Of a DNA stretch of 64,000 bases, positions 6,060 to 57,734 are shown piece by piece. The stretch spans positions 165,771 through 229,770 of the forward strand of contig OZ246402.1 in the NCBI GenBank assembly GCA_965230975.1, given 5' to 3'. This stretch comes from an uncultured Candidatus Saccharibacteria bacterium. Lineage in GTDB: Bacteria; Patescibacteriota; Dojkabacteria; J137. A program made the translations under genes and the position numbers. Position 1 is the first letter of the stretch, and every line of letters starts with the position of its first letter. The notes beneath the pieces were generated by a model. That model saw only the letters and a program-made list of their open reading frames with translations. It searched no databases and was not told where the DNA came from.

Positions 6060-6611
6060 ATGTCAAAATCTTTTATAAAACTTTTAGACAATGCATTGCT
6101 ACCTGCTAGCTTAATGCTTGTATCTAAGTTTGTTGGCATATTCTTTATCATCAGATTTTTCAATTTAGATTGGGTAGTTCAGCAAACTCCTAATAACTTT
6201 TTATCATTTCAAACAGTATTGTCTGCTCAAAATGTAGTTTTAGTTACTTCGTACTCAGATTTAATTATGTTTTGTGCAATTGCCTTGGGTTTTACTATTA
6301 ATTTGTTAAAGGCAATTTTTTTGCATAATTCTCACATTAGTCCTCAAATGCTTAATAGGCTTGCCAATAGAAATCTGCTATCGTTAATTAAAAATTCATA
6401 TGAGATTTACCACTCTGCTTCGGTTTGGTTGTTCTTTTTGTGGGTTGCTGTAGCTATTGTTATTACAAATACTTTAAATAATGCAATTTATAGTTGGGTT
6501 GGTTTGGCTACTTTGCTTGTTAGTATTTTGTTAACGATTGTATTCTTTCAAGATGTTTATAAGGAAATTGAAAACGCAAGACTTCACCCAGGAAAATATT
6601 TAAATCAATGA
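6060..6611 (+). CDS. hypothetical integral membrane protein
   Basis: 183 aa with about 5 hydrophobic helices. No recognisable motif. Confidence 0.4.
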   Translation: MSKSFIKLLDNALLPASLMLVSKFVGIFFIIRFFNLDWVVQQTPNNFLSFQTVLSAQNVVLVTSYSDLIMFCAIALGFTINLLKAIFLHNSHISPQMLNRLANRNLLSLIKNSYEIYHSASVWLFFLWVAVAIVITNTLNNAIYSWVGLATLLVSILLTIVFFQDVYKEIENARLHPGKYLNQ

Positions 6612-6967
6612 GTTCGCAAACTCCCTTATTAGAGACCTCTTCTCATCACGCAAGGTTTGTTATTTCTAATCAAGATAAGTATTTTTTTGCTGCTTATTGG
6701 CATTTAATGGATTTGGTAGAGATAGGTAATATGGATTTAATAACGAATGCATTAAAAGAGATTAATAAATCTATTGAAAGTGTTGGAGTGCTAAGTTTAG
6801 ATTCTTCTTCTATAAAATGGATGGAGTATATTTTAAGTTTTATAGGTGGTTTTGCACAGGATTTAAATTCCAGATATTTTTTGTCTCAAAAAGCAGATTT
6901 GATGGCGCAATTAGAGATGTTAGAATTGCTATATAAGCTTGCTAGTAAATCTTTCACAGAAATTTAG
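6608..6967 (+). CDS. hypothetical protein
   Basis: 119-aa ORF, 4-nt overlap with the upstream gene (operon-like). No recognised motif. Confidence 0.35.
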   Translation: MSSQTPLLETSSHHARFVISNQDKYFFAAYWHLMDLVEIGNMDLITNALKEINKSIESVGVLSLDSSSIKWMEYILSFIGGFAQDLNSRYFLSQKADLMAQLEMLELLYKLASKSFTEI

Positions 6968-7003
6968 ATATTTCATTCTAATCTTGTTCTAGTTTGCGAA
7001 ATA

Positions 7004-7480
7004 ATGTATGCTAGAAGCATGATAGCTTTAATACGAGATTTACCGTTACCAGAACTTTTAGGTATTGATGATTTACCTAAAGAAGATTTAGACTCAGTTA
7101 TGGGTGAGTTTGGAGAGATTTTAGTAGAGCTTTTGTTAAATAGGCTTGAAGAAAATCCTTTATGGTCTGATGAGCAAAAGAAAGATGCTAGTGATTTTAT
7201 TAATGCAAATATTGGTAAAGATAATTTTTTTGATTTGTTAAAGCAAAAATACCCAGATTTAGATTCTATGTTTGATAGTGAAACTTACATGTTTAAAAAG
7301 AACGTATTGTTAGAGCAAATAGAACAAGATAAGGATTTTGAGTTTGATAATTTAACAGAAGAAGATAAATCAGATTGGTTAGATATTTTAAATAATTTGA
7401 AAGATGTAATTGAAAAGGATAACGAATACGAATTTGAAGTTTCGTGGATGGAATATTTAGATTTTAAGAGTAATAAGTAA
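7004..7480 (+). CDS. hypothetical acidic protein
   Basis: 158 aa, strongly D/E-rich. No recognised motif. Confidence 0.4.
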   Translation: MYARSMIALIRDLPLPELLGIDDLPKEDLDSVMGEFGEILVELLLNRLEENPLWSDEQKKDASDFINANIGKDNFFDLLKQKYPDLDSMFDSETYMFKKNVLLEQIEQDKDFEFDNLTEEDKSDWLDILNNLKDVIEKDNEYEFEVSWMEYLDFKSNK

Positions 7481-23709: not shown

Positions 23710-26700
23710 TCACCACCTACTATACATCAAAACTTTATGATCTTCAGCTGTTTTTGGTACCTCGTTCCAAATATATTGTGTAATAAATGGAATGAACGGG
23801 TGCAACATTTTCAAGTACTCTTTCAAAACATAAACCATTGTTAAAACTACCTCTTGTCGTATTTTTGCATCTGGTTCCGAAATTATTGCACCACTTTCTC
23901 TATCTTTAACTGTGTTTATAAATGGTTTTGATTCTTCTATTAGTACATCACAAAATGTTTTCCAAAATTCTTCGTACAATGTTTCTGTTGCGTAACCAAA
24001 TTCATAAGCGTCAACGTTTTTTGTAACTTTTGATTTCACCTGCTTAATGTGCTCAACTAATTTGATCGAAAATTCGTTTGATACTTTTTCTGCATCAAAG
24101 TTTGCTGGCTCTACTCCTTCTGCATTTGTAAGTACAAATCTGCTAGCATTCCAAATCTTATTCATGAATTGCTTAAAGTTTTTTAGCTTGTCGTATGTGA
24201 TTGCATAATTTCCGCCTGCTTTGTTTTGGTAAAAGTAAACCATTCTTACTGCGTCAGTTCCATATTCACTAACGATTTTGTCCATATCAATCATGTTGCC
24301 TTTAGATTTACTCATCTTTTGTCCATCTGTTCCTAAAACTAACCCTGTTAAGAATAAGTTTTCAAATGGAATTTGCTTGTCATGAAAGTAGGTAAACATC
24401 ATCATTCTTGAATCCCAGTTTTCTAAAATATCATGTGCGGATACTAAAACTTTTGTAGGGAAGAATGTGTCTTTTAAGTTGTGAGCTTGTAAAGTTGCAT
24501 AAACCCATTGTCCACTGCTAAACCAAGTGTCTAAAACGTTTTCGTCTTGATGCCATTCGGAAGTATTAAGTTCTAAGTTATAAGTTGTGAGATCTTTTTG
24601 TGGCTCAAATACAAAAGTAATCTTTTCTAGGTTATCGTGAGGTTTATTAACAATATCTTTGTAATCTCTATCTTTTAGTTTGTTTTCAAGTGTTCTTAAT
24701 ACTCCACCATGAGTCACGATTAATACCTTATTACCTTGATATTTTGTTTTAATCTCTTCGAATGCTCTTAAGATTCTCGATTCAAAGTTAGGGATTGTTT
24801 CAATATTGGCTTTTTCGGGGTGGTTATCAACCAAGTCGTAAATATCATTTGCAAATTCCGGGAATTTTTTAATGGCCTCTGCTCTAGTTAATCCTTCAAA
24901 GTCCCCAAAGTTCTTTTCTCTTAAGTTGGAATCTTTAATTATCTTGCTTTTATCAAAACCTATTTTGTCTGCAATTATCTCTGCAGTTTGAATCGCTCTA
25001 TTTAAATCTGAGCAAATAATGTAGTCATAGCATTCTGTGGATTCAAAATTTCTTGCTTGCTCTTTTCCTTTTTCTGTCAAATCAGTATTTGTATGACCAC
25101 CGAATCTCTTTTCAACATTAGCAATTGTCTCACCATGTCTAATAACATCAATAATTGTTGAATCAGGATTATGTAGCTGTACTCTTAAATGATTAGGGTT
25201 GTCGTATTCAAGTGGAATCCAATCTTGATTTTGCCTTTTTTCTCTTTTCATTTGAATCATATACAATTCTCCAGGTCCTTCTTTTCGACCTTCAACTGGG
25301 TATTCTTCAAATCCAAATTTTAAATAGAACTCTTTTAAATTAGCTTTTTCAGGGGTTGCAATGTGTATCTCTAGTTTATCACCAAAATCATCTAAAACTT
25401 TATACATTAATAGTTTACCCACTCCCTGTTTTTGATACTGCTTGCTTACATAAATATTTAGCCAATGTATTCTATCTGTATCCCTGATATTTTCTAAATC
25501 AATCCAACCAATAACTTCCCCATCTTTTTCTGCAATAAATACGATATTGTTTTCATCAATAATCATATCTTGATACTCTTTTATCTTTTCAAGATCATCC
25601 GATTTTCTACCATATTTATTAGCAATAACTTCTGCAGTGACACCTCTCTCTTCGTCAATAAAACTTTGCATCCAACCTTGAACATCAATCTCGTGCATGA
25701 TTGATGCATCTTTGAGTTCAGCTTTACGAATAGTGATGTCGCTGTGTGTATAAAAAGGCTTTGTTAGCCTAATCAGTTCTCTAACCTGTCCATTTTCATC
25801 AATTTCTTCTTTAATTTCTCCGTGGTACCAAACTGGTAATCTGTAACCCCACCAAAGGCTTCTTGAAATTGCCCAATCTCTTAGGTTTTCCATCCAGTGG
25901 TTAAATTTATCTACCATGTTTTCTGGGTGAATAGTAACTTGGCCATTTTTTACCATTTCTATTGCAGCCTGCTTTATGTTGTTTTCTGGAGTGTCGTATT
26001 TTAAATACCATTGAGAAGATAGAATTGGTTCAATTAAAGCTCCTGTTCTTTCAGATTTATTAATACTTTGTTTAATAGATTCCTCTTTAATTAAGTATCC
26101 TTCATTTTTCAAATCTTCGATTATTAAATCTTTAACCTTAGTGTATTTTTGATTCCTATACTTTTCAGGTACATAATCACTTACAAGCATTAGATTGCCA
26201 TCGATAATATTTCTGGCTGTAATTGATTTGTTAGGATTCTCTTTGTTCCATTCAAGCATTGTTTGATAGTCATCTTGAGAGTGTGCAGGAGTAATTTTTA
26301 GTGCTCCAGTTCCAAAGTCTGTTAAAACTTTATAGTTAGTAATAATTGGGATTTTAATATTAGTTAAAGGAATAATAACCTCTTTACCAACAATATCTTT
26401 GTATCTAGGGTCAGATGGATTAACCGCTACTGCTGTATCTCCAAACATCGTTTCCGGTCTTGTTGTTGCAACAGTTACAGATTTAGAACTGTCATCTGCA
26501 AACTTATATTGAAGATAGTAAAGTTTCCCGTCTCTCTCCTCTCTTACCATTTGATTATCTGCAACTGCTGTTCGTGCTTTTGGGTCCCAGTTAACAATTC
26601 TTACACCCTTATAAATCATACCTGCTTTATACATTTCTACAAATGTATTTAAAACAGTATCTACAACTCTTGGGTCTAATGTAAAAATATTTCTGTCATA

Positions 26701-27162
26701 ATCTGCCGAAAGACCAATATGCTTTTCATCATTCATTGCAATCTCCATATTCTTTTTAAAGAACTCCATCATCTCGGCATAAAAATCCTCTCTAGTCATA
26801 TCAAACTTGTTTCTACCCTGCTTTTCTAAAACATCTCTAATAAAAACGCCTTCACCTTCAAGCCCAGCATGATCTTTACCCGGCAAAACTAAAACTTTCT
26901 TACCCTGCATTCTGGCATATCTAGCCATTGCATCTTGATAAGCGTAACCGGAAATGTTTCCAATGTGAGGCCTTGCATAAGCGTTTGGCGGCGGACAAAT
27001 TAATGCCCATGGTTCTCTTGGATCTGCCTTCATCTCTTCAACTGACATTAATTTGTCCGTTGTAGGATTGTATTCAGGCTTGTGATAGCCGTTATTAAGC
27101 CATAAATCTAAAATTATCTTTTCGTATTCTGTTGGGTTGTATGGACCTTGTGGTAGTGACAT
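23710..27162 (-). CDS. valS: valyl-tRNA synthetase carrying an internal GNAT + histidine-phosphatase insertion
   Basis: CPPPNAYARPHIGN (HIGH), the CP1 editing domain TTRPETMFGDTAVAVNPSDPRY, NHWMENLRDWAISRSLWWGYRLPVWY, DENVLDTWFSS and GQKMSKSKGN identify ValRS. Between PVWY (aa ~446) and DVLDTWFSS (aa ~877) there are ~425 aa, where E. coli ValRS has ~35. There is no C-terminal coiled-coil. Confidence 0.9.
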   Translation of the reverse strand: MSLPQGPYNPTEYEKIILDLWLNNGYHKPEYNPTTDKLMSVEEMKADPREPWALICPPPNAYARPHIGNISGYAYQDAMARYARMQGKKVLVLPGKDHAGLEGEGVFIRDVLEKQGRNKFDMTREDFYAEMMEFFKKNMEIAMNDEKHIGLSADYDRNIFTLDPRVVDTVLNTFVEMYKAGMIYKGVRIVNWDPKARTAVADNQMVREERDGKLYYLQYKFADDSSKSVTVATTRPETMFGDTAVAVNPSDPRYKDIVGKEVIIPLTNIKIPIITNYKVLTDFGTGALKITPAHSQDDYQTMLEWNKENPNKSITARNIIDGNLMLVSDYVPEKYRNQKYTKVKDLIIEDLKNEGYLIKEESIKQSINKSERTGALIEPILSSQWYLKYDTPENNIKQAAIEMVKNGQVTIHPENMVDKFNHWMENLRDWAISRSLWWGYRLPVWYHGEIKEEIDENGQVRELIRLTKPFYTHSDITIRKAELKDASIMHEIDVQGWMQSFIDEERGVTAEVIANKYGRKSDDLEKIKEYQDMIIDENNIVFIAEKDGEVIGWIDLENIRDTDRIHWLNIYVSKQYQKQGVGKLLMYKVLDDFGDKLEIHIATPEKANLKEFYLKFGFEEYPVEGRKEGPGELYMIQMKREKRQNQDWIPLEYDNPNHLRVQLHNPDSTIIDVIRHGETIANVEKRFGGHTNTDLTEKGKEQARNFESTECYDYIICSDLNRAIQTAEIIADKIGFDKSKIIKDSNLREKNFGDFEGLTRAEAIKKFPEFANDIYDLVDNHPEKANIETIPNFESRILRAFEEIKTKYQGNKVLIVTHGGVLRTLENKLKDRDYKDIVNKPHDNLEKITFVFEPQKDLTTYNLELNTSEWHQDENVLDTWFSSGQWVYATLQAHNLKDTFFPTKVLVSAHDILENWDSRMMMFTYFHDKQIPFENLFLTGLVLGTDGQKMSKSKGNMIDMDKIVSEYGTDAVRMVYFYQNKAGGNYAITYDKLKNFKQFMNKIWNASRFVLTNAEGVEPANFDAEKVSNEFSIKLVEHIKQVKSKVTKNVDAYEFGYATETLYEEFWKTFCDVLIEESKPFINTVKDRESGAIISEPDAKIRQEVVLTMVYVLKEYLKMLHPFIPFITQYIWNEVPKTAEDHKVLMYSRW
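24583..25161 (-). other. histidine-phosphatase (phosphoglycerate-mutase-like, branch 1) domain embedded in valS, about aa 668-860
   Basis: IIDVIRHGETIANVEKRFGGHTNTDLTEKGKEQAR carries the RHGE catalytic His motif. ICSDLNRAIQTAEII and LIVTHGGVLRTL supply the second catalytic His motif. Confidence 0.7.
25243..25725 (-). other. GNAT (N-acetyltransferase) domain embedded in valS, about aa 480-640
   Basis: IVFIAEKDGEVIGWIDLE...HWLNIYVSKQYQKQGVGKLLMYKVLD...ANLKEFYLKFGFEE is the GNAT beta4-alphaC acetyl-CoA-binding Q/RxxGxG/A motif plus a C-terminal YxxxGF. Confidence 0.7.
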
Positions 27163-49657: not shown

Positions 49658-50848
49658 ATGAAAATTTTAAAAATCGAAGAGATTCAAAACTTTGATGAAA
49701 TTATTAAAACTTTGAAAAATGGAGGTCTTGTAATCTACCCGACCGAAACATCTTACGGTGTTGGTGTAGATGCAACAAATGAAGATGCAGTTTCAAAACT
49801 TTTAAAATATAAACAACGCCCAGAAGGGAAAGCTATTTCTATTGCGGTAAGTAATCAAGACTCGGCAAAAAAGTATGTTAAATTAAACTCGCAGGCAGAA
49901 GGTCTTTACAATACTTTTTTGCCGGGGCCAGTTACAATTATTTCTAAGTCTTTAGAAAAAGTAGATAAACGTTTAGAAAGTGAAAAAGAAACTTTGGGGG
50001 TTAGGATTCCAAATCATAGATTCTTACTAGATTTGCTAAGTGCTTTTGGAAAGCCGATTACGGCAACATCTGCAAATTTAAGTGGTAAAAAGACACCCTA
50101 CTCTGTTTCAGATATTTTAGATAATTTGCCAGAGAAGCAAAAAGATTTAATAGATTTGATTATTGATGGTGGCGAGTTGCCTAAAAACCCACCTTCAACA
50201 GTAATAGATACTACTACTTCAGAACTTACAACTTATAGGCAAGGTAGAATTGATCCAACAAAGGTTGCATCTAGTGACTCTCTTGAGACTAGTTCAGTTG
50301 AAGAAACTATTTTGGCAGGTGAAAAATTCTTTTTTGACCATAAAAAAGCTTTAAAAACAGGTCCATTAGTAATTTTATTAAATGGAGAGCTAGGTGCTGG
50401 CAAGACCCATTTTACAAAAGGAATTGCCAAGGCTTTAGGTATTAAAAATGTTATAAAATCGCCTACATATAACTATGTTAACGAGTATATTTTTACATCT
50501 AAATCTTTGCAAAGCTCTTCTATTGAAGATTTAAATAACGAAGCTGTGAGTATTAACAATTCAAATTACAGAGTTAGAGATAAGGATTTGGATCATTTAA
50601 AAACTACTTATTTTGAAAAACATAAGTTGTACCACTTTGACGCTTGGCGGGTTCAATCTAAAGAGGATTTAAATTTACTAAGGTTTTACGATTGGTTTGA
50701 ATCGGGCAATGTAATTATTATTGAATGGCCAAGTGTAGTAATGAATTTGGACCAGGATTTTTTTGAAAAGATAAACTACTACTATTTAGAGTTTGTTCAG
50801 TTAGATAACGATTCTAGAGAAATTAAAATATTTGAAATTAATAATTAA
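49658..50848 (+). CDS. fusion of L-threonylcarbamoyladenylate synthase (TsaC/YrdC domain) and the t6A P-loop ATPase TsaE (YjeE)
   Basis: N-terminal LKNGGLVIYPTETSYGVGVDATNEDAVSKLLKYKQRPEGKAISIAV is the YrdC/Sua5 signature (about aa 1-197). C-terminal GPLVILLNGELGAGKTHFTKGIAKALGIKNVIKSPTYNYVNEY is a near-consensus match to TsaE (E. coli [37 protein letters not shown]), about aa 215-396. Confidence 0.75.
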   Translation: MKILKIEEIQNFDEIIKTLKNGGLVIYPTETSYGVGVDATNEDAVSKLLKYKQRPEGKAISIAVSNQDSAKKYVKLNSQAEGLYNTFLPGPVTIISKSLEKVDKRLESEKETLGVRIPNHRFLLDLLSAFGKPITATSANLSGKKTPYSVSDILDNLPEKQKDLIDLIIDGGELPKNPPSTVIDTTTSELTTYRQGRIDPTKVASSDSLETSSVEETILAGEKFFFDHKKALKTGPLVILLNGELGAGKTHFTKGIAKALGIKNVIKSPTYNYVNEYIFTSKSLQSSSIEDLNNEAVSINNSNYRVRDKDLDHLKTTYFEKHKLYHFDAWRVQSKEDLNLLRFYDWFESGNVIIIEWPSVVMNLDQDFFEKINYYYLEFVQLDNDSREIKIFEINN

Positions 50849-53864: not shown

Positions 53865-54560
53865 ATGCATTCAGTTAAATTTGTTAAAAATAATATGCAA
53901 AAATGGTTGGCTCACCCAGGGGCTCAATTGGTCGATTTAATAATAAATAGGCCAGATTTTCAAACAATTTCTTCAAATCCAGAATCGAATGGGCATTATA
54001 GGAATAAAATTGTAGGGGAATTTTATGGAGATTTAAATAACTTTACCAGATATTATATTGACCCGTTAACTGGTGAGAATAAACAAACTGTTATTAGCAA
54101 ATTAACTGATAGGTGGGAGTCTTTTAAGAAAAGAAATTACTTACCATTTAATGAACTTGCAGAATTTGTACTTAACTTAGCTGATATTTATTATGCAATT
54201 AGATTTGATAAGCTTGCATATAAGTGGGAAGATTCCCACCCCACTATGCAAATTTACAACGAAATTTACAATTATTTCTCTAATGAACTATGTGATTTTT
54301 TATTTGGTTCTGATAATGGTGTGTTAAATGAGAATGCAATTGCAGCAGTAGAACTTTTAATGAGAAATATTACAGCAAATAAATACTATGTTAGAAGTTG
54401 TTTAATAGAATCGAATGAAACAGAGATTAAAAGAGAAACCAGAGGAAATTTAGAGCGCTTAATTACGGCATTGTATTTACAAAGACAGCTGGATATATAC
54501 GGTATAAGTCGAGTGGAAGACGAAGAGTATATTCAAAATTTACGTTGCATGGAAAGTTAG
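53865..54560 (+). CDS. hypothetical protein
   Basis: 231-aa ORF. No recognised motif. Confidence 0.4.
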   Translation: MHSVKFVKNNMQKWLAHPGAQLVDLIINRPDFQTISSNPESNGHYRNKIVGEFYGDLNNFTRYYIDPLTGENKQTVISKLTDRWESFKKRNYLPFNELAEFVLNLADIYYAIRFDKLAYKWEDSHPTMQIYNEIYNYFSNELCDFLFGSDNGVLNENAIAAVELLMRNITANKYYVRSCLIESNETEIKRETRGNLERLITALYLQRQLDIYGISRVEDEEYIQNLRCMES

Positions 54561-54728
54561 TGTTATAATATCCGCATGAATTCAAAATTCACTTGCACAA
54601 ACTATTTCTTCTACTGGCTTTAAGCCAGACATAAATCACACCCACAAATCGCTAGTTTTAATTTATTTTAGGTTTTATGATATTTATTTCTTTTAACACA
54701 ATGTATTGGTATAGCCTACTCCATTTAA

Positions 54729-54790
54729 CTTGGCGGAGGTAACATACCTGTATTTTTCTAATAAACCGCCAAGAAGGCGGTTTTTTTTAT
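54729..54790 (+). promoter_or_regulatory. putative cis-regulatory leader (riboswitch/attenuator-like) with mutually exclusive antiterminator and terminator helices
   Basis: Terminator AAACCGCC-aagaa-GGCGGTTT followed by T8 (54763-54788), ending 5 nt before the downstream ATG. The 3' half of its left arm, CCGCCAAG (54766-54773), is perfectly complementary to CTTGGCGG at 54729-54736, giving an alternative 8-bp pairing. A further hairpin CTGGCT-tta-AGCCAG lies at about 54614-54628 in the same 233-nt noncoding region. Confidence 0.45.
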
Positions 54791-54793
54791 TTA

Positions 54794-56167
54794 TTGATAC
54801 TAATTATGAACAATATTTTACAAGAACAAAAAGTACAGATTACAGCAAGGCAGGTTGCTAACAAGTTTTTTGGATCTTTTTACGATGAAAGGCACAATTT
54901 TCGAATTTCAGAGGAAATGGCTCCTCTTTCTTCTGAAAACTTAGTATCTATAGAATTGGTAGCCAGTGTAATACCAGACTTTATAGAAGGCTCTCTTAAG
55001 CTAGAGGCCTTATCTTTGATTGACGATAAATTTAGAAGATCTGATGCAACATTTAGATTAATCAGAAGATTGTTAGGAATAGAAAGCGTATTTCAAGCAA
55101 TGATAGAACTGAATAAAGCAGAAGGATTTAAAAGAGATGCGGAAAGAGATTTTGAACAAGAATTGAGAATAATTTCTCAAACCCAACTAAGCGAAAATCA
55201 TCCGTTTGTAAGGCTGGATTGTATTATAGATTGTGACTCTAAAGCTATAAAAATAGTAGAAATTGAAGAAGCAAAGTTACATGGACTTGGTTACGCTACT
55301 TTGTGCAGAATGCTGTCTGATGTAAAAGTTGGAGAAGGTTTAGTAAACAGATTTGTTGATCTAACTAAAGACAACCCCGGACTTATACTCTTATCAAACA
55401 ATGAAAGATTTTACTTAATGGAGCAACTTTTTTTTGCAAAGCAGGTAAACCAGTCAGGTGGAAATTTAACTATTGCAATGCAAGATAAAATTGATATAAC
55501 TGAAGAAGGAATTGCAGTAAGAGATGAGTTTGGAAGAACAAATAAGATTCTAACGAACATCATAAACCTCCCACAGTTTAGTGGCAATTCAGAACATGCA
55601 GCAAAAGTAGATAAAGCGATTAATTCTCTCTTTTTAAGAGGAGTTATTGATATAAAATCTTTTAGAAGATCATTCTTAGGAGAGAAATCATTACTAGCTT
55701 TAATTTCCAATCCATTCCATGACCCAGAACTAGAAGAATTGCTTGTAGCTTGTTTCAACCCATCTATAATTGAGATTTTAAGGGAAATGATACCTAAAAC
55801 ATTTATGCCCACAAGCAAAAATCAAAAGCAAAATATTATAGAAATGATAAGATCAGGCAAAAAAGTTTTTGTAAAAGTTGTAAACGCATCTGGTGCAAGA
55901 GGGGTTGCCTCTTTTGATGAACCTCTGCGTCAAATTGAACTTATACAACAAGGAAATGTTATTGTACAAGAAGCAATCCAAGCACAACAAGTAGAACTTC
56001 CTTTTTGTGATTTAGCCACTTTAGAAACTGGGGTTGATAATCATACTATTAGATATGGCTCTTTTGTATTTAATGGAAATCTTGAAGAGATAGCGGCTAC
56101 TGCTTCGCCTTCAAAAATTGCGCATGGAGGGGTAACATCTATACAGACAGGAATAAAAATTATTTAA
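54794..56167 (+). CDS. hypothetical protein (457 aa), possibly ligase/ATP-grasp-like (very uncertain)
   Basis: Long ORF immediately after the structured leader. The true start may be the internal Met at 54806. No confidently recognised motif. Confidence 0.4.
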   Translation: MILIMNNILQEQKVQITARQVANKFFGSFYDERHNFRISEEMAPLSSENLVSIELVASVIPDFIEGSLKLEALSLIDDKFRRSDATFRLIRRLLGIESVFQAMIELNKAEGFKRDAERDFEQELRIISQTQLSENHPFVRLDCIIDCDSKAIKIVEIEEAKLHGLGYATLCRMLSDVKVGEGLVNRFVDLTKDNPGLILLSNNERFYLMEQLFFAKQVNQSGGNLTIAMQDKIDITEEGIAVRDEFGRTNKILTNIINLPQFSGNSEHAAKVDKAINSLFLRGVIDIKSFRRSFLGEKSLLALISNPFHDPELEELLVACFNPSIIEILREMIPKTFMPTSKNQKQNIIEMIRSGKKVFVKVVNASGARGVASFDEPLRQIELIQQGNVIVQEAIQAQQVELPFCDLATLETGVDNHTIRYGSFVFNGNLEEIAATASPSKIAHGGVTSIQTGIKII

Positions 56168-56172
56168 ACAAT

Positions 56173-56718
56173 ATGGAAAATTTAATATTAATTAGGCACG
56201 GAGAAACAGGTGATAATAAATCAGATCCTAAAAGAGCTTTAACTAAAGAGGGTCAACGAAAAGTTGGGGAAGTAGCTTTATTGTTATCTAGAAATTTTAA
56301 AGATAAAGAATTTTTAATTTTAACCACAGATACTTATAGAGCTGTTCAAACGTCCAATATTCTTGCAAAAGAATTGACTGTTAATAAAATAGTAAAATCA
56401 AAACTTAGAATTTTGAACTTAGATAATTTGAGATCTATAATTCAATCAAATGAAAAAAAAAGAATCAGACCTGCTAAAACCTATTTGAGTATGCCAGACA
56501 ATCAACTGAAAGAATTAGAAGTAGAAACCTCTGATCAAGTTTTTAACAGATGGACAAAATTAATTAAGGATTTTAAAGCTAAAAACGTTATAATTGTTAG
56601 TCATGAATGTTCTCTAGAAGCTTTTTTATCAAAACAAAAGGGCTATACCGTGATTCGTAAATCCTTTAAAAAGTACTTTAATTATGGTGATTTCGCAATA
56701 TTAACAAAAAAAATATGA
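56173..56718 (+). CDS. histidine-phosphatase superfamily protein (SixA/phosphoglycerate-mutase-like)
   Basis: [31 protein letters not shown] carries RHGE. The second catalytic His is in [13 protein letters not shown]. Overlaps the trpS start by 4 nt. Confidence 0.7.
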
Positions 56719-57734
56719 ATAATATAAATAATAAAAAACCAAGAATACTAACTGGTGATAGACCAACAGGCAAACTACACCTTGGTCATTACGTTGGCTC
56801 TTTAGCAAATAGAGTTAAACTTCAAGATGAATACGATGAATTTATAATGATTGCAGATGTACAAGCTTTAACCGACAATTATGACAATCCTCAAAAAGTT
56901 AGAGATAACCTACTAGAAGTAGCAATGGATTACTTAGCTGTAGGTATTGATCCAACAAAAACAACAATTTTTGTACAATCACAAATTCCAGAAATTGCAG
57001 AACTAACAGTCTTTTTTATGAACTTAGTAACACATGCTCAAGTTTTAAGAAACCCAACTGTAAAAACTGAAATAATAGAAAAAGGATTTGGAGACACTAC
57101 TCCATTTGGATTTGTAGCCTACCCAGTAAGTCAGGCTGCAGACATCCTATTTTTAAAAGCAAGCTTAGTACCGGTTGGAGCCGATCAAGCACCAATGTTA
57201 GAACTTGCAGATGAGATAGGTCAAAGATTTAACCGAACATACAACACAAACATCTTCCCACGGGTAAAAGGATTGTTTGGAGAAATCCCAAGATTAATTG
57301 GTACAGATGGTCAAGCAAAAATGAGCAAATCTATTGGAAACACAATTTATTTGTCAGATTCTACAGAGATAGTAAAAGAAAAGGTAATGAAAATGTACAC
57401 AGACCCAAACAGAAAGAAATCAACAGACCCTGGAACCGTAGAAGGCAACCCCGTATTTATTTATCATGATGCCTTTAACCCAGATAAGGCAGAAGTTGAG
57501 AATTTGAAAGCAAGATACAAGGCAGGGACAGTTGGAGATGTAGAGGTTAAACAAAAACTAGCAGTTGCAATTAACAACTTTTTAGACCCAATAAGAGAAA
57601 GAAGGTCTAAATACGAACAAAACCCGGAACTTGTTAAAGAGATTTTAGAAAAAGGCATAGAAAAAGCTAGTATAATTGCAAAAGAAACTATGCAAGAGGT
57701 AAAGTCTGCAATGAAAATAGACTATTTTAAATAA
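56715..57734 (+). CDS. trpS: tryptophanyl-tRNA synthetase (bacterial type)
   Basis: [16 protein letters not shown] (HIGH-type), [17 protein letters not shown] (compare E. coli GIDPEKSTIFVQSHVPE), [10 protein letters not shown]...VPVGADQ, KMSKS. Confidence 0.9.

What the first reader, a model, noticed from the sequence alone, without database searches (positions are those of the whole stretch)
56173..57734. Stand-alone histidine phosphatase translationally coupled to trpS, echoing the phosphatase domain inside valS
A 181-aa RHGE/SHE histidine phosphatase (SixA/PGM-like) overlaps the trpS start codon by 4 nt (ATGA). A second histidine-phosphatase domain is embedded in valS 30 kb away. Two independent physical links between this fold and class I aaRS genes in one window suggest a lineage-specific functional coupling. 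Possibilities include phospho-regulation of synthetases or processing of tRNA 3' ends bearing 2',3'-cyclic or 3'-phosphates before charging.
Basis: inference. Interest (0 to 1): 0.55.

Follow-up and report, generated by a model that had tools for sequence, protein, structure and literature searches.

The report
ATP-grasp/phosphatase pair inside attenuated trpS operon
The small phosphatase gene overlapping trpS is real, but its constant partner is an unannotated ATP-dependent ligase gene just upstream, and in this candidate-phyla bacterium the pair sits between a tryptophan-sensing leader and trpS, so its unknown job appears to be switched on when charged tRNA runs short.

Summary
ORF 56173-56718 is an intact 181-aa branch-1 histidine phosphatase (HP), and its stop overlaps the trpS start (ATGA). 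valS, 31 kb away, carries an inserted GNAT plus His_Phos_1 domain.

- The two phosphatases are different branches. They share 26% identity. The valS domain is PhoE/CobC-like and scores 50 bits on the HP-family profile, against 138-220 bits for members.
- HP belongs to a compact, unannotated family. In all 13 contexts examined, its invariable neighbour is the upstream gene X (54806-56167), not trpS.
- X has no Pfam family. Profile comparison shows it is a glutathionylspermidine-synthase-like ATP-grasp ligase (hhalign 89.7%, E 1.9e-6).
- Downstream of X-HP lies trpS (6 contexts, in two CPR lineages), hisS (2), argS (1), a tRNA-binding-domain gene (1), or something unrelated (3). This is far more aaRS/tRNA genes than chance predicts.
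- Conversely, 80 other species' trpS loci lack X-HP.
- Upstream of X is a trp-attenuator-like leader: a short ORF with Trp codons (tandem His codons in one of the two hisS-linked versions), alternative hairpins and a terminator.

Best reading: X-HP is a two-enzyme module co-transcribed with aaRS genes under control of tRNA charging. Its substrate is unknown.

The parts
54561..54569 (+). Extended -10 promoter-like box TGTTATAAT, at the start of the 233-nt leader region
   Evidence: Read from the sequence. TGnTATAAT is conserved in relatives L099 and L100 (alignment A7). A -10-like box also sits 6-8 nt before the leader ATG in L085, L095 and L088. This is a consensus match only; the transcription start is not mapped.
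54576..54623 (+). Mini-ORF1, MNSKFTCTNYFFYWL*, starting 6 nt after the -10 box. Its end lies in the hairpin CTGGCTTTAAGCCAG (54614-54628).
   Evidence: It is conserved in L099 (MRNLLIATNSFYYWL) and L100 (MCNKLKLHINSFFYWL). It also occurs directly upstream of trpS in the Dojkabacteria MAG L010, which lacks X-HP (MNSRKSIKQTSLQWLKA, TGGCTTAAAGCC).
54677..54742 (+). Leader ORF2, MIFISFNTMYWYSLLHLTWRR* (alternative start 54701), with Trp codons at 54707 and 54731
   Evidence: Homologous leader peptides with Trp codons precede X in L099, L100, L085 (TTWWQ), L095 (QIWWY), L088, L086 and L093. The hisS-linked L094 has HH instead. Trp makes up 11 of 136 leader residues against 0.79% in window proteins (P 1.5e-8).
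54715..54739 (+). Attenuator region 1 (CCTACTCC, 54715-54722) and region 2 (TTGGCGGAGG, 54730-54739). Region 2 can pair either with region 1 or with the 5' arm of the terminator.
   Evidence: ViennaRNA folds. The full leader folds into 1:2 plus the terminator (-26.7 kcal/mol). In the nascent transcript lacking the 3' arm, GGCGG 54732-54736 pairs with CCGCC 54766-54770. The same alternative pairing is predicted in L099, L100 and L085.
54763..54791 (+). Intrinsic terminator AAACCGCC-AAGAA-GGCGGTTT followed by a T-run, 15 nt before the X start codon
   Evidence: Terminator scan. Sub-threshold Rfam Trp_leader RF00513 match at 54701-54790 (25.4 bits, gathering 41, E 0.0045 for a 401-nt search). Equivalent terminators precede X in L099, L100, L085, L095, L094, L086 and L088.
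54806..56167 (+). Gene X: 453-aa GspS-like (circularly permuted type) ATP-grasp ligase with no Pfam/NCBIfam family. It is the invariable upstream partner of the phosphatase.
   Evidence: There are no family hits above threshold. A homologue lies immediately upstream of the phosphatase in 13/13 contexts. hhalign against a 9-sequence glutathionylspermidine-synthase family profile gives prob 89.7%, E 1.9e-6 and 255 collinear columns. Weak Pfam hits to CP_ATPgrasp_2, R2K_3 and YheCD map consistently. The ATG at 54806 is preferred over the TTG at 54794 because the terminator T-run ends at 54791, and the gene callers also chose 453 aa.
56173..56718 (+). HP: 181-aa compact branch-1 histidine phosphatase (the finding). 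It starts 5 nt after the X stop.
   Evidence: The family is clearly delimited: >=122 bits for members against <=70 bits for the next hits. pI is 9.9, against 5.4 for X.
56715..57734 (+). trpS (tryptophan--tRNA ligase, 339 aa). Its start overlaps the HP stop (ATGA).
   Evidence: Closest relatives are Ca. Dojkabacteria MAGs (69-72% identity).
24598..25146 (-). His_Phos_1 domain embedded in valS (aa 673-855). Listed for comparison only; it is not part of the module.
   Evidence: It is a PhoE/CobC-like branch, 26% identical to HP, and scores 49.7 bits on the HP-family HMM.

Best explanation
The 181-aa gene is the second half of a conserved two-gene enzyme module found in candidate-phyla (Patescibacteria) genomes. 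The first gene, X, is a glutathionylspermidine-synthase-like ATP-grasp enzyme. Enzymes of this kind use ATP to turn a carboxylate into an acyl-phosphate and join it to an amine. The second gene, HP, is a catalytically intact, compact histidine phosphatase.

In this genome the module lies between a trp-attenuator-like leader and trpS, so leader-X-HP-trpS form one transcription unit. The proposed control works as follows. When charged tRNA-Trp is scarce, a ribosome stalls on the Trp codon of the leader ORF and covers region 1. Region 2 (UUGGCGG) then pairs with the 5' arm of the terminator, and transcription reads through into X, HP and trpS. When charging is adequate, the ribosome runs to the stop codon and covers region 2. 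The terminator then forms.

The physical link to trpS is therefore operon-level co-regulation by tRNA charging. It does not reflect a special affinity of the histidine-phosphatase fold for class I synthetases. The valS-embedded domain is an unrelated branch.

Shown here:
- the gene pair and its conservation;
- the enrichment of aaRS/tRNA genes downstream;
- the leader anatomy;
- the homology of X to GspS-type ligases;
- the intact active site of HP.

Inferred:
- that attenuation actually operates;
- that X and HP act on one substrate. The most likely arrangement is that X builds an amide from a phosphorylated precursor and HP removes the phosphate. This is the synthase-plus-dedicated-phosphatase logic of CobS/CobC or GpgS/GpgP. 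Alternatively, HP may reverse or limit X's product;
- that the product serves the response to amino-acid (chiefly Trp) shortage.
For: Pairing of X and HP. X-family homologues lie directly upstream of every HP-family gene examined (13/13 contexts). Junctions range from a 4-nt overlap to an 8-nt gap.

Identity of X.
- hhalign against the GspS family gives 89.7% probability and E 1.9e-6.
- Four independent weak Pfam hits all fall in the ATP-grasp clan, with the order expected for a permuted domain.
- Conserved motifs include R136-x-D138, E152-x-E154, K294, K357, S362-G363-x-x-G366, Q388, R416 and H440-G441.

Identity of HP.
- Pfam His_Phos_1.
- Invariant R8/H9/R21/R56 and near-invariant H144.
- Model pLDDT 95.8, with histidine-phosphatase fold matches only.

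Link to aaRS genes. The downstream gene is trpS in 6 contexts, hisS in 2, argS in 1 and tRNA_bind in 1. Counting at least 4 independent associations in 7 lineages gives P between 1e-5 and 2e-4. The trpS linkage occurs both in a Dojkabacteria-like and in a Shapirobacteria-like TrpRS background.

Leader.
- A terminator lies directly before X.
- There is a sub-threshold Trp_leader match.
- Leader ORFs are enriched about 10-fold in Trp (P 1.5e-8). Tandem WW occurs in two trpS-linked loci and tandem HH in the hisS-linked L094.
- Alternative 1:2 / 2:3 / 3:4 pairings are predicted in window, L099, L100 and L085.
- The elements are conserved in alignment A7.

Operon continuity. No terminator-like site lies between X, HP and trpS in the window.
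Against: - The substrate and reaction of X and HP are unknown. No experiment and no characterised close homologue exists.
- X could not be modelled (pLDDT 44.8 with 3 sequences), so its ATP-grasp assignment rests on profile comparison alone.
- The Rfam Trp_leader score is below gathering (25.4 vs 41). The attenuator is an in-silico model, and leader ORFs were picked from several candidates per locus.
- For L094, L086 and L088 the folding did not return the antiterminator as the minimum-energy nascent structure. For L094 and L088 complementary segments of 6-7 nt do exist. For L086 only an imperfect match was seen by eye.
- Three contexts have no aaRS downstream (sufC in L084; convergent genes in L090 and L093). 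Close relatives of the trpS-linked genomes (L010, L039, L065, L040) lack the module, so the coupling is facultative.
- L095 has a second terminator-like structure between HP and trpS, so trpS can be regulated separately there.
- Only 13 contexts were sampled, mostly short metagenome contigs.
Confidence: 0.6

Rival explanations
1. The stand-alone phosphatase and the valS-embedded domain reflect one lineage-specific coupling of the histidine-phosphatase fold to class I synthetases. The phosphatase acts on the synthetase (phospho-regulation) or heals tRNA 3' ends (3'-phosphate or 2',3'-cyclic phosphate) before charging.
For: - aaRS and tRNA-binding genes are significantly enriched downstream of the family.
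- HP is very basic (pI 9.9).
- Its N-terminal half is most similar to SixA/PGAM5-type protein phosphatases.
- The active site carries extra conserved arginines (R21, R126).
Against: - The two domains belong to different branches: 26% identity, 49.7 vs >=138 bits, and PhoE/CobC-like versus no PDB sequence hit.
- The partners include the class II HisRS.
- The model ignores the invariable ATP-grasp partner.
- HP has a ~50-residue helical cap over the active site (residues ~80-135), which SixA lacks.
- From general knowledge, known RNA 3'-phosphatases belong to other folds (HAD/Pnkp, metallophosphoesterase, 2H). No histidine-phosphatase precedent was found in the literature searches.
Confidence: 0.1
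2. The trpS adjacency has no functional meaning. It is a by-product of genome compaction and inherited gene order in small CPR genomes. On this view the X-HP pair works in an unrelated pathway and merely uses strong, regulated promoters of essential genes.
For: - 80 other trpS loci lack the module.
- The nearest relatives L010 and L039 have other genes upstream of trpS.
- Three contexts lack an aaRS downstream.
- Broad synteny (Sua5/TsaE - ABC ATPase - X - HP - trpS) is shared among window, L099 and L100. Part of the trpS count is therefore vertical inheritance.
- Short overlaps are common in this window.
Against: - Four different aaRS/tRNA partners in independent lineages are very unlikely by chance.
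- The trpS linkage recurs in two TrpRS backgrounds with different flanking genes.
- The module carries a Trp-codon leader even where no aaRS follows (L093, L088).
- Trp_repressor-family genes lie next to the module in L093, and next to a degenerate HP-like gene before trpS in L016.
Confidence: 0.15
3. X is an aminoacyl-tRNA-dependent ligase. It phosphorylates a carboxylate and uses the amino group of an aminoacyl-tRNA, supplied by the co-encoded synthetase, as nucleophile. This is what the PEARL enzymes do. HP is an accessory or clean-up enzyme.
For: - X is GspS-like.
- PEARL peptide aminoacyl-tRNA ligases have been proposed to descend from GspS/glutathione-synthetase-like ATP-grasp enzymes, and the first described PEARL step uses Trp-tRNA (bioRxiv 10.1101/2024.03.12.584671, read).
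- The model would explain linkage to several different aaRS genes and to a tRNA_bind domain.
Against: - There is no sequence similarity of X to LanB/PEARL families in Pfam, or to solved LanB-type structures.
- No scaffold-peptide gene was recognised.
- Inducing a consumer of Trp-tRNA when Trp-tRNA is scarce is counter-intuitive.
- The role of a phosphatase is unexplained.
Confidence: 0.08
4. X and HP form an opposing kinase/phosphatase (or synthase/hydrolase) cycle that sets the level of a phosphorylated signalling metabolite during starvation. Precedents are PPIP5K (ATP-grasp kinase plus histidine-phosphatase domain) and PFK-2/FBPase-2.
For: - Tight translational coupling of X and HP (13/13 contexts).
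- Opposite charge (pI 5.4 vs 9.9), which suggests a complex.
- Fructose-2,6-bisphosphatase domains are among the PDB sequence matches of the HP profile.
- Starvation-type regulation of the operon.
Against: - X aligns with the ligase-type GspS clade, not with ATP-grasp kinases.
- No signalling target is known in these genomes.
- The precedents are recalled from general knowledge and were not tested here.
Confidence: 0.07

Closest known systems
Histidine phosphatase superfamily, branch 1 (PF00300): SixA, PGAM5, PhoE, CobC, GpgP
   Same: - RHG motif and the catalytic Arg-His-Arg-His set.
- The alpha/beta fold: Foldseek matches 6s2q, 3e9d, 3f2i and 4pza at E 1e-6 to 1e-7.
- The N-terminal half resembles SixA-like Alr0221 (3f2i) and a PGAM5-like protein (3eoz).
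   Different: - No equivalog cut-off is reached: sixA 36.8 vs 74.5 bits; archaeal dPGM 45.1 vs 225; CobC 29.1 vs 162.9.
- It carries its own ~50-aa helical cap.
- It lacks the RE..G..EG segment of PhoE/CobC-type enzymes, which the valS domain has.
- It forms a separate, sharply delimited family that always follows the ATP-grasp gene X.
Glutathionylspermidine synthase family ATP-grasp ligases (E. coli Gss C-terminal domain, and YgiC/YjfC, which RefSeq annotates as 'peptide--spermidine ligase') and Pfam CP_ATPgrasp_2
   Same: X aligns collinearly over 255 columns with this family (prob 89.7%, E 1.9e-6). The aligned motifs include R-x-D...E-x-(N/E), the (N/E)-K-x-L-L segment, the ATP-binding Lys, the glycine-rich loop and the conserved Gln. 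As in Gss, a hydrolase is physically coupled to the synthetase.
   Different: - X lies below every Pfam/NCBIfam threshold.
- X has an extra N-terminal region of 120-300 aa.
- The coupled hydrolase is a phosphatase, not a CHAP amidase.
- The usual neighbour of YgiC/YjfC (the DUF1190 protein) is absent.
- The substrates are unknown.
Ribosome-mediated transcription attenuators (E. coli trp operon leader, Rfam RF00513; pheST leader)
   Same: A short leader ORF with cognate codons, four segments able to form 1:2, 2:3 and 3:4 pairings, and a terminator with a U-run just before the first structural gene.
   Different: - The Rfam score is below gathering.
- It controls a synthetase operon that also carries two unrelated enzymes.
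- In this clade a second, leaderless mini-ORF with a Trp codon precedes it.
- It is not a T-box: there was no Rfam T-box match even at E<=10.
Class I synthetases with inserted accessory domains (NCBIfam NF040702, 'isoleucine--tRNA ligase, N-acetyltransferase domain-containing')
   Same: valS in this window carries a GNAT domain inserted in the catalytic core. This shows that such insertions are a recognised kind.
   Different: The valS insert also contains a PhoE/CobC-like phosphatase. It concerns valS, not the trpS operon, and its phosphatase is not of the HP181 family.

Membership tests
Histidine phosphatase superfamily branch 1 (PF00300) | Profile score above the Pfam gathering threshold | tested here: met
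   48.3 bits against 21.7, E 1.3e-12, covering residues 4-157.
Histidine phosphatase superfamily branch 1 (PF00300) | Catalytic RHG histidine plus the second Arg and second His | tested here: met
   R8, H9 and R56 are invariant and H144 is >=90% conserved in 47 family members.
Histidine phosphatase superfamily branch 1 (PF00300) | Phosphoglycerate-mutase-like alpha/beta fold | tested here: met
   AF2 pLDDT 95.8. 216 PDB matches at E<=0.001; the 50 best listed are all histidine phosphatases, TM ~0.5.
Histidine phosphatase superfamily branch 1 (PF00300) | Phosphatase activity through a phospho-histidine intermediate | not testable with these tools
   Needs an enzyme assay.
SixA phosphohistidine phosphatase (TIGR00249) | Equivalog score above the cut-off over the full length | tested here: not met
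   36.8 bits against 74.5. Only residues 3-72 align.
SixA phosphohistidine phosphatase (TIGR00249) | Minimal ~160-aa domain without a cap over the active site | tested here: not met
   The model shows four helices between residues 83 and 134, inserted before the H144 strand.
Same subfamily as the valS-embedded phosphatase domain | Scores like a member on the HP-family profile, or shows high pairwise identity | tested here: not met
   49.7 bits against 138-220 for members. 26% identity. The nearest solved relatives differ.
GspS-like / circularly permuted ATP-grasp ligases (gene X) | Significant profile match to the family | tested here: met
   hhalign prob 89.7%, E 1.9e-6, 255 columns. The Pfam gathering score is not reached: best CP_ATPgrasp_2 is 21.1 against 32.
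GspS-like / circularly permuted ATP-grasp ligases (gene X) | Motif order: the Mg-binding R-x-D/E-x-N segment comes before the ATP-binding Lys and Gly loop | tested here: met
   X 116-159 matches the C-terminal part of the classical R2K_3 model. X 328-372 matches the N-terminal part of YheCD. The CP_ATPgrasp_2 positions are collinear.
GspS-like / circularly permuted ATP-grasp ligases (gene X) | ATP-grasp three-dimensional fold | tested here: inconclusive
Ribosome-mediated trp-type attenuator (RF00513-like) | Rfam gathering score | tested here: not met
   25.4 bits against 41.
Ribosome-mediated trp-type attenuator (RF00513-like) | Leader ORF with cognate codons, mutually exclusive antiterminator and terminator, and a U-run before the first gene | tested here: met
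   The elements are conserved in relatives.
Ribosome-mediated trp-type attenuator (RF00513-like) | Read-through responds to Trp-tRNA supply | not testable with these tools
   Needs a reporter or an in vitro transcription-translation assay.
T-box riboswitch | Rfam T-box match in the leader | tested here: not met
   No match at gathering in the whole window, nor at E<=10 in 54450-54850.
Known anti-phage defence systems (PADLOC) | Any profile match for X, HP or their neighbours | tested here: not met
   No hits at E<=1.

The most novel reading that the evidence does not exclude
X-HP is a previously unrecognised translation-linked system of candidate-phyla bacteria, induced by shortage of charged tRNA. 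In it, a GspS-like ATP-grasp enzyme acts directly on the aminoacylation machinery. It might use aminoacyl-tRNA as nucleophile, as PEARL enzymes do, or add a group to a tRNA, a synthetase or a ribosomal protein. The histidine phosphatase would complete or reverse the reaction. If so, this would be a new enzymatic layer between amino-acid sensing and tRNA charging in organisms that cannot make their own amino acids.
Probability: 0.15. Interest if true: 0.8.

Novelty: new variant of a known kind. Interest (0 to 1): 0.5.

Why it matters
Candidate-phyla bacteria have tiny genomes, depend on hosts for amino acids, and carry many genes of unknown function. This analysis turns an isolated 'hypothetical phosphatase next to trpS' into a defined unit that can be tested.

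The unit is a conserved ATP-grasp ligase plus histidine phosphatase pair. It is repeatedly built into synthetase operons and preceded by a leader that looks designed to sense tRNA-Trp charging.

If the model holds, it gives three things:
- a handle on how these organisms respond to amino-acid starvation;
- a new, delimited family for each of the two enzymes (neither has a specific Pfam or NCBIfam model);
- an example of classical leader-peptide attenuation outside the well-studied phyla.

It also corrects the appealing but unsupported idea that the valS insert and the trpS neighbour reflect one mechanism.

Tried and rejected
- T-box control of the operon: rejected. There was no Rfam match at gathering in 64 kb, nor at E<=10 in the leader.
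- Defence-system or toxin-antitoxin origin: no PADLOC match for X, HP or their neighbours. No consistent mobile-element genes were seen.
- A third conserved gene upstream of X: the 231-aa ORF 53865-54560 has no family. Upstream genes differ between loci.
The permitted 3-sequence alignment gave pLDDT 44.8, too poor for a fold search.
- PDB sequence search with the X profile: only a spurious 0.29 hit.
- Single-sequence and 3-sequence GspS comparisons were weak. Significance came only after six plasmid homologues were added.
- Wider surveys:
  - the word-indexed protein search found only 2 close homologues each for HP and X;
  - the metagenome locus scan failed on the divergent alignments and gave one locus with a narrower one;
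- GNAT of the valS insert against the GNAT gene after trpS in L095: only generic similarity (E 0.017), so no specific GNAT-HP-aaRS theme.
- The 320-aa ORF before the degenerate HP-like gene in L016 is not detectably related to X.
- Literature searches found no description of an ATP-grasp plus histidine-phosphatase pair, or of phosphatase or GNAT insertions in CPR synthetases.
- Source names: none is attached to these proteins in the public collection.
Full report
**1. The observation**

The ORF at 56173-56718 (+) encodes 181 aa beginning [13 protein letters not shown] and containing VSHEC. It matches Pfam His_Phos_1 (E 1.3e-12, 48.3 bits, gathering 21.7).

Its TGA overlaps the ATG of the next ORF, 56715-57734, as ATGA. 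That ORF is trpS: TIGR00233, 279 bits against a cut-off of 176.75.

valS is 23710-27162 (-) and encodes 1150 aa. It carries a roughly 400-aa insert between ...PVWYHGE and WHQDENVLDTWFSSG. The insert contains a GNAT domain (aa 524-629) and a His_Phos_1 domain (aa 673-855, E 5.5e-41).

The window has 32% G+C. Its TrpRS is closest to Candidatus Dojkabacteria MAGs (69-72% identity), so the source is a candidate-phyla (Patescibacteria) genome. The same proteins occur on a 1.19-Mb contig.

**2. The two phosphatases are not the same kind**

- Pairwise identity is 26% (E 1e-8 for a single comparison).
- The valS domain resembles PhoE and CobC: PDB 1ebb/1h2e at E 1e-18 and CobC at 8e-14; NCBIfam ribazole_cobC at 107 bits.
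- The stand-alone protein has no PDB sequence match at E<=0.01. It reaches no NCBIfam cut-off. Its best partial hits are the archaeal dPGM model (45 bits) and sixA (37 bits, residues 3-72 only).
- An HMM built from 47 relatives of the stand-alone protein scores true members at 138-220 bits. The valS domain scores 49.7 bits.

The 'echo' is a superfamily-level coincidence.

**3. The stand-alone phosphatase belongs to a small, sharply delimited family**

An exhaustive HMMER search of 1.84 billion representatives found 84 proteins at E<=1e-3. About 55 of them are full-length proteins of 170-196 aa. With the family profile, members score >=122 bits and the next proteins <=70 bits.

R8, H9, R21 and R56 are invariant. 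G10, T24, G27, Y104, P120, R126, H144 and Y171 are >=90% conserved.

An AlphaFold2 model built with 20 members has pLDDT 95.8. It shows the usual sheet plus four helices (residues 83-134) forming a cap. Foldseek against the PDB returns only histidine phosphatases: GpgP-type mycobacterial hydrolases, TIGAR, the SixA-like Alr0221 and PGMs, at E 1e-6 to 1e-7 and TM about 0.5.

The enzyme is thus very probably active, but no characterised subfamily claims it.

**4. The constant neighbour is the upstream gene, not trpS**

I recovered 13 distinct genomic contexts of family members (48/49/52, 70, 71). In every one, a 390-620-aa gene with no Pfam family lies immediately upstream on the same strand. 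The junctions range from a 4-nt overlap to an 8-nt gap.

All these upstream proteins are homologous to window ORF 54806-56167, which I call X. phmmer gives E 8.5e-8 to 6e-111, and the X-family HMM gives 89-650 bits (the lowest values are contig-truncated fragments).

| Downstream of HP | Contexts | Loci |
|---|---|---|
| trpS | 6 | window, L083, L085, L095, L099, L100 |
| hisS | 2 | L086, L094 |
| argS with an N-terminal B3_4 domain | 1 | L091 |
| 107-aa tRNA_bind protein | 1 | L088 |
| sufC | 1 | L084 |
| convergent genes | 2 | L090, L093 |

All six trpS genes are true TrpRS orthologues.

Taking only four independent aaRS/tRNA associations in seven lineages, and a 2.5-5% background, gives P between 1.3e-5 and 1.9e-4.

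The TrpRS of L085 and L095 is closest to Shapirobacteria-like sequences. The TrpRS of window, L099 and L100 is closest to Dojkabacteria. The trpS linkage therefore spans two CPR lineages with different flanking genes.

Conversely, none of 80 trpS loci from other species carries X or a family-type HP within 6 kb. These include the closest ones: L010, L039, L065 and L040.

One locus, L016, has a degenerate HP-like ORF before trpS. It lacks RHG and R56 (hhalign 94.7%), and a Trp_repressor-family gene lies upstream.

**5. What X is**

X has no significant Pfam or NCBIfam hit, but the weak hits are coherent:
- CP_ATPgrasp_2: L093 protein 159-196 to model 69-105; L091 protein 255-319 to model 286-352, E 1.7e-4.
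- The classical ATP-grasp R2K_3: residues 116-159 to the C-terminal part of the model.
- YheCD: residues 328-372 to the N-terminal part of the model.

This is the pattern expected for a circularly permuted ATP-grasp.

I built a profile of the glutathionylspermidine-synthase family from E. coli YgiC, YjfC and the Gss C-terminal domain, plus six plasmid-borne homologues. hhalign against the X alignment gave probability 89.7%, E 1.9e-6 and 255 collinear columns (X 130-436 to YgiC 94-370). With three sequences it had been 15%.

Conserved X residues fit the ATP-grasp motifs: R136-x-D138, E152-x-E154, K294, K357, S362-G363-x-x-G366, Q388, R416 and H440-G441.

X is acidic (pI 5.4) and HP is basic (pI 9.9).

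**6. The leader**

A 233-nt intergenic region precedes X. It contains, in order:
- an extended -10-like box (TGTTATAAT, 54561-54569);
- a mini-ORF starting 6 nt later (MNSKFTCTNYFFYWL, 54576-54623);
- a second short ORF (MIFISFNTMYWYSLLHLTWRR, 54677-54742);
- a terminator (AAACCGCC-AAGAA-GGCGGTTT plus a T-run, 54763-54791), 15 nt before the X start.

Rfam gives a sub-threshold match to the enterobacterial Trp operon leader (25.4 bits, gathering 41, E 0.0045 in that small search) and no T-box match.

Folding shows the classical arrangement. Region 1 (CCUACUCC) pairs with region 2 (UUGGCGGAGG), and a terminator follows. In the nascent RNA, region 2 instead pairs with the 5' arm of the terminator.

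The same design is predicted in L099, L100 and L085. Promoter box, ORFs, UUGGCGG and terminator are conserved in the alignment of window, L099 and L100.

Leader peptides before X in other lineages also carry cognate-looking codons:

| Locus | Leader motif | Gene after HP |
|---|---|---|
| L085 | TTWWQ...PW | trpS |
| L095 | QIWWY | trpS |
| L088 | NYW | tRNA_bind gene |
| L086 | LWHY | hisS |
| L093 | MIWSGRFCW | convergent Trp_repressor gene (no aaRS) |
| L094 | LVHHSS | hisS |

Trp makes up 11 of 136 leader residues, against 0.79% in the window's proteins (P 1.5e-8). The ORFs were chosen among alternatives, so this P value is optimistic.

The Dojkabacteria MAG L010 lacks X-HP. It keeps only the first element (promoter, leaderless mini-ORF MNSRKSIKQTSLQWLKA, hairpin) before trpS. 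This suggests that the attenuator-X-HP block lies inserted between an older trpS leader and trpS.

No terminator-like site separates X, HP and trpS in the window.

**7. Interpretation**

The best-supported picture is an operon, leader-X-HP-trpS. Transcription depends on ribosome stalling at Trp codons, that is, on the supply of charged tRNA-Trp.

X-HP is a two-enzyme module: an ATP-dependent carboxylate-amine ligase and a phosphatase. It has been combined repeatedly with synthetase or tRNA-binding genes.

The chemistry is not known. I consider it most likely that the two enzymes act in sequence on one phosphorylated small molecule (synthase plus dedicated phosphatase). This is the commonest setting for bacterial branch-1 histidine phosphatases such as CobC and GpgP, a point from general knowledge. 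The cap over the HP active site fits a small substrate.

Alternatives:
- an opposing synthase/hydrolase cycle, as in Gss, PFK-2/FBPase-2 or PPIP5K;
- action on a translation component;
- an aminoacyl-tRNA-dependent ligation. PEARL enzymes use Trp-tRNA and have been proposed to derive from GspS/glutathione-synthetase-like ATP-grasp enzymes (bioRxiv 10.1101/2024.03.12.584671).

They have no specific support, and they do not account for X.

**8. Novelty and score**

Histidine phosphatases, GspS-like ligases and leader-peptide attenuators are all known kinds. The following are not described in the libraries or papers I could search:
- the delimited HP and X families;
- their obligatory pairing;
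- their placement inside attenuator-controlled synthetase operons of candidate-phyla bacteria.

I rate this a new variant of a known kind, with interest 0.5. It is a concrete, testable lead with unknown biochemistry. The eye-catching valS parallel should be dropped.

Noticed in passing
window 23710-27162 (-): valS encodes 1150 aa. A ~400-aa insert (GNAT aa 524-629 plus a PhoE/CobC-like histidine phosphatase aa 673-855) splits the class I catalytic core between WYHGE and WHQDENVLDTWFSSG. NCBIfam has a model for GNAT-containing IleRS, but I found no description of a GNAT+phosphatase insert in ValRS.
   Followed up: partly
window 54561-54793: A trp-attenuator-like leader lies in front of X. It comprises a promoter box, two short ORFs with Trp codons, alternative hairpins and a terminator. 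The Rfam Trp_leader match is sub-threshold (25.4 bits).
   Followed up: yes
L095 5067-6536; L099 6913-8469: In two relatives, the TrpRS downstream of X-HP carries an N-terminal YbaK-type aminoacyl-tRNA editing domain (PF04073). This is an unusual fusion for a tryptophanyl-tRNA synthetase. In L095 a GNAT gene follows it (6533-7309).
   Followed up: no
L091 1664-3976 (also L092): The ArgRS downstream of X-HP has an N-terminal B3_4 domain (PF03483), a domain normally found in the PheRS beta subunit.
   Followed up: no
L016 1092-4295: The gene order is Trp_repressor-family gene, 320-aa unknown ORF, 206-aa degenerate histidine-phosphatase-like ORF, trpS. The phosphatase-like ORF has lost RHG and the second Arg and overlaps the previous ORF by 4 nt. 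This looks like a pseudo-enzyme version of the same theme in another lineage. The 320-aa ORF is not detectably related to X.
   Followed up: partly
L093 2329-2586 (-): A Trp_repressor-family gene (PF01371) lies convergent to, and overlaps the end of, the HP gene in a locus where no synthetase follows the module. Together with L016, this hints at a tryptophan-specific connection.
   Followed up: no
L095 4951-5066: A second terminator/antiterminator-like structure lies between HP and trpS: CGCAGGA / TCCTGCG / CGCAGGA followed by T6. trpS may have its own control there.
   Followed up: no
L010 5835-5905: A Dojkabacteria MAG without X-HP keeps a promoter box, a leaderless mini-ORF (MNSRKSIKQTSLQWLKA) and a TGGCTTAAAGCC hairpin directly before trpS. 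These are homologous to window 54561-54628.
   Followed up: partly
L100 5001-5075 (protein P0196): The called start of the X homologue P0196 lies upstream of the terminator hairpin. The peptide ...KPPIGGFF... is the translated AAACCGCC...GGCGGTTTTTT. The true start is probably the later Met, so the public gene call is about 20 codons too long.
   Followed up: partly
window 49658-50848 (+): A 396-aa protein has both Sua5/YciO/YrdC (PF01300) and TsaE (PF02367) hits, an apparent fusion of two t6A-synthesis proteins. It is also present in L099 and L100, upstream of the X-HP-trpS block.
   Followed up: no
window 1-64000: No Rfam family reaches its gathering score anywhere in the 64 kb, on either strand. 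That means no tRNA, rRNA or riboswitch.
   Followed up: no
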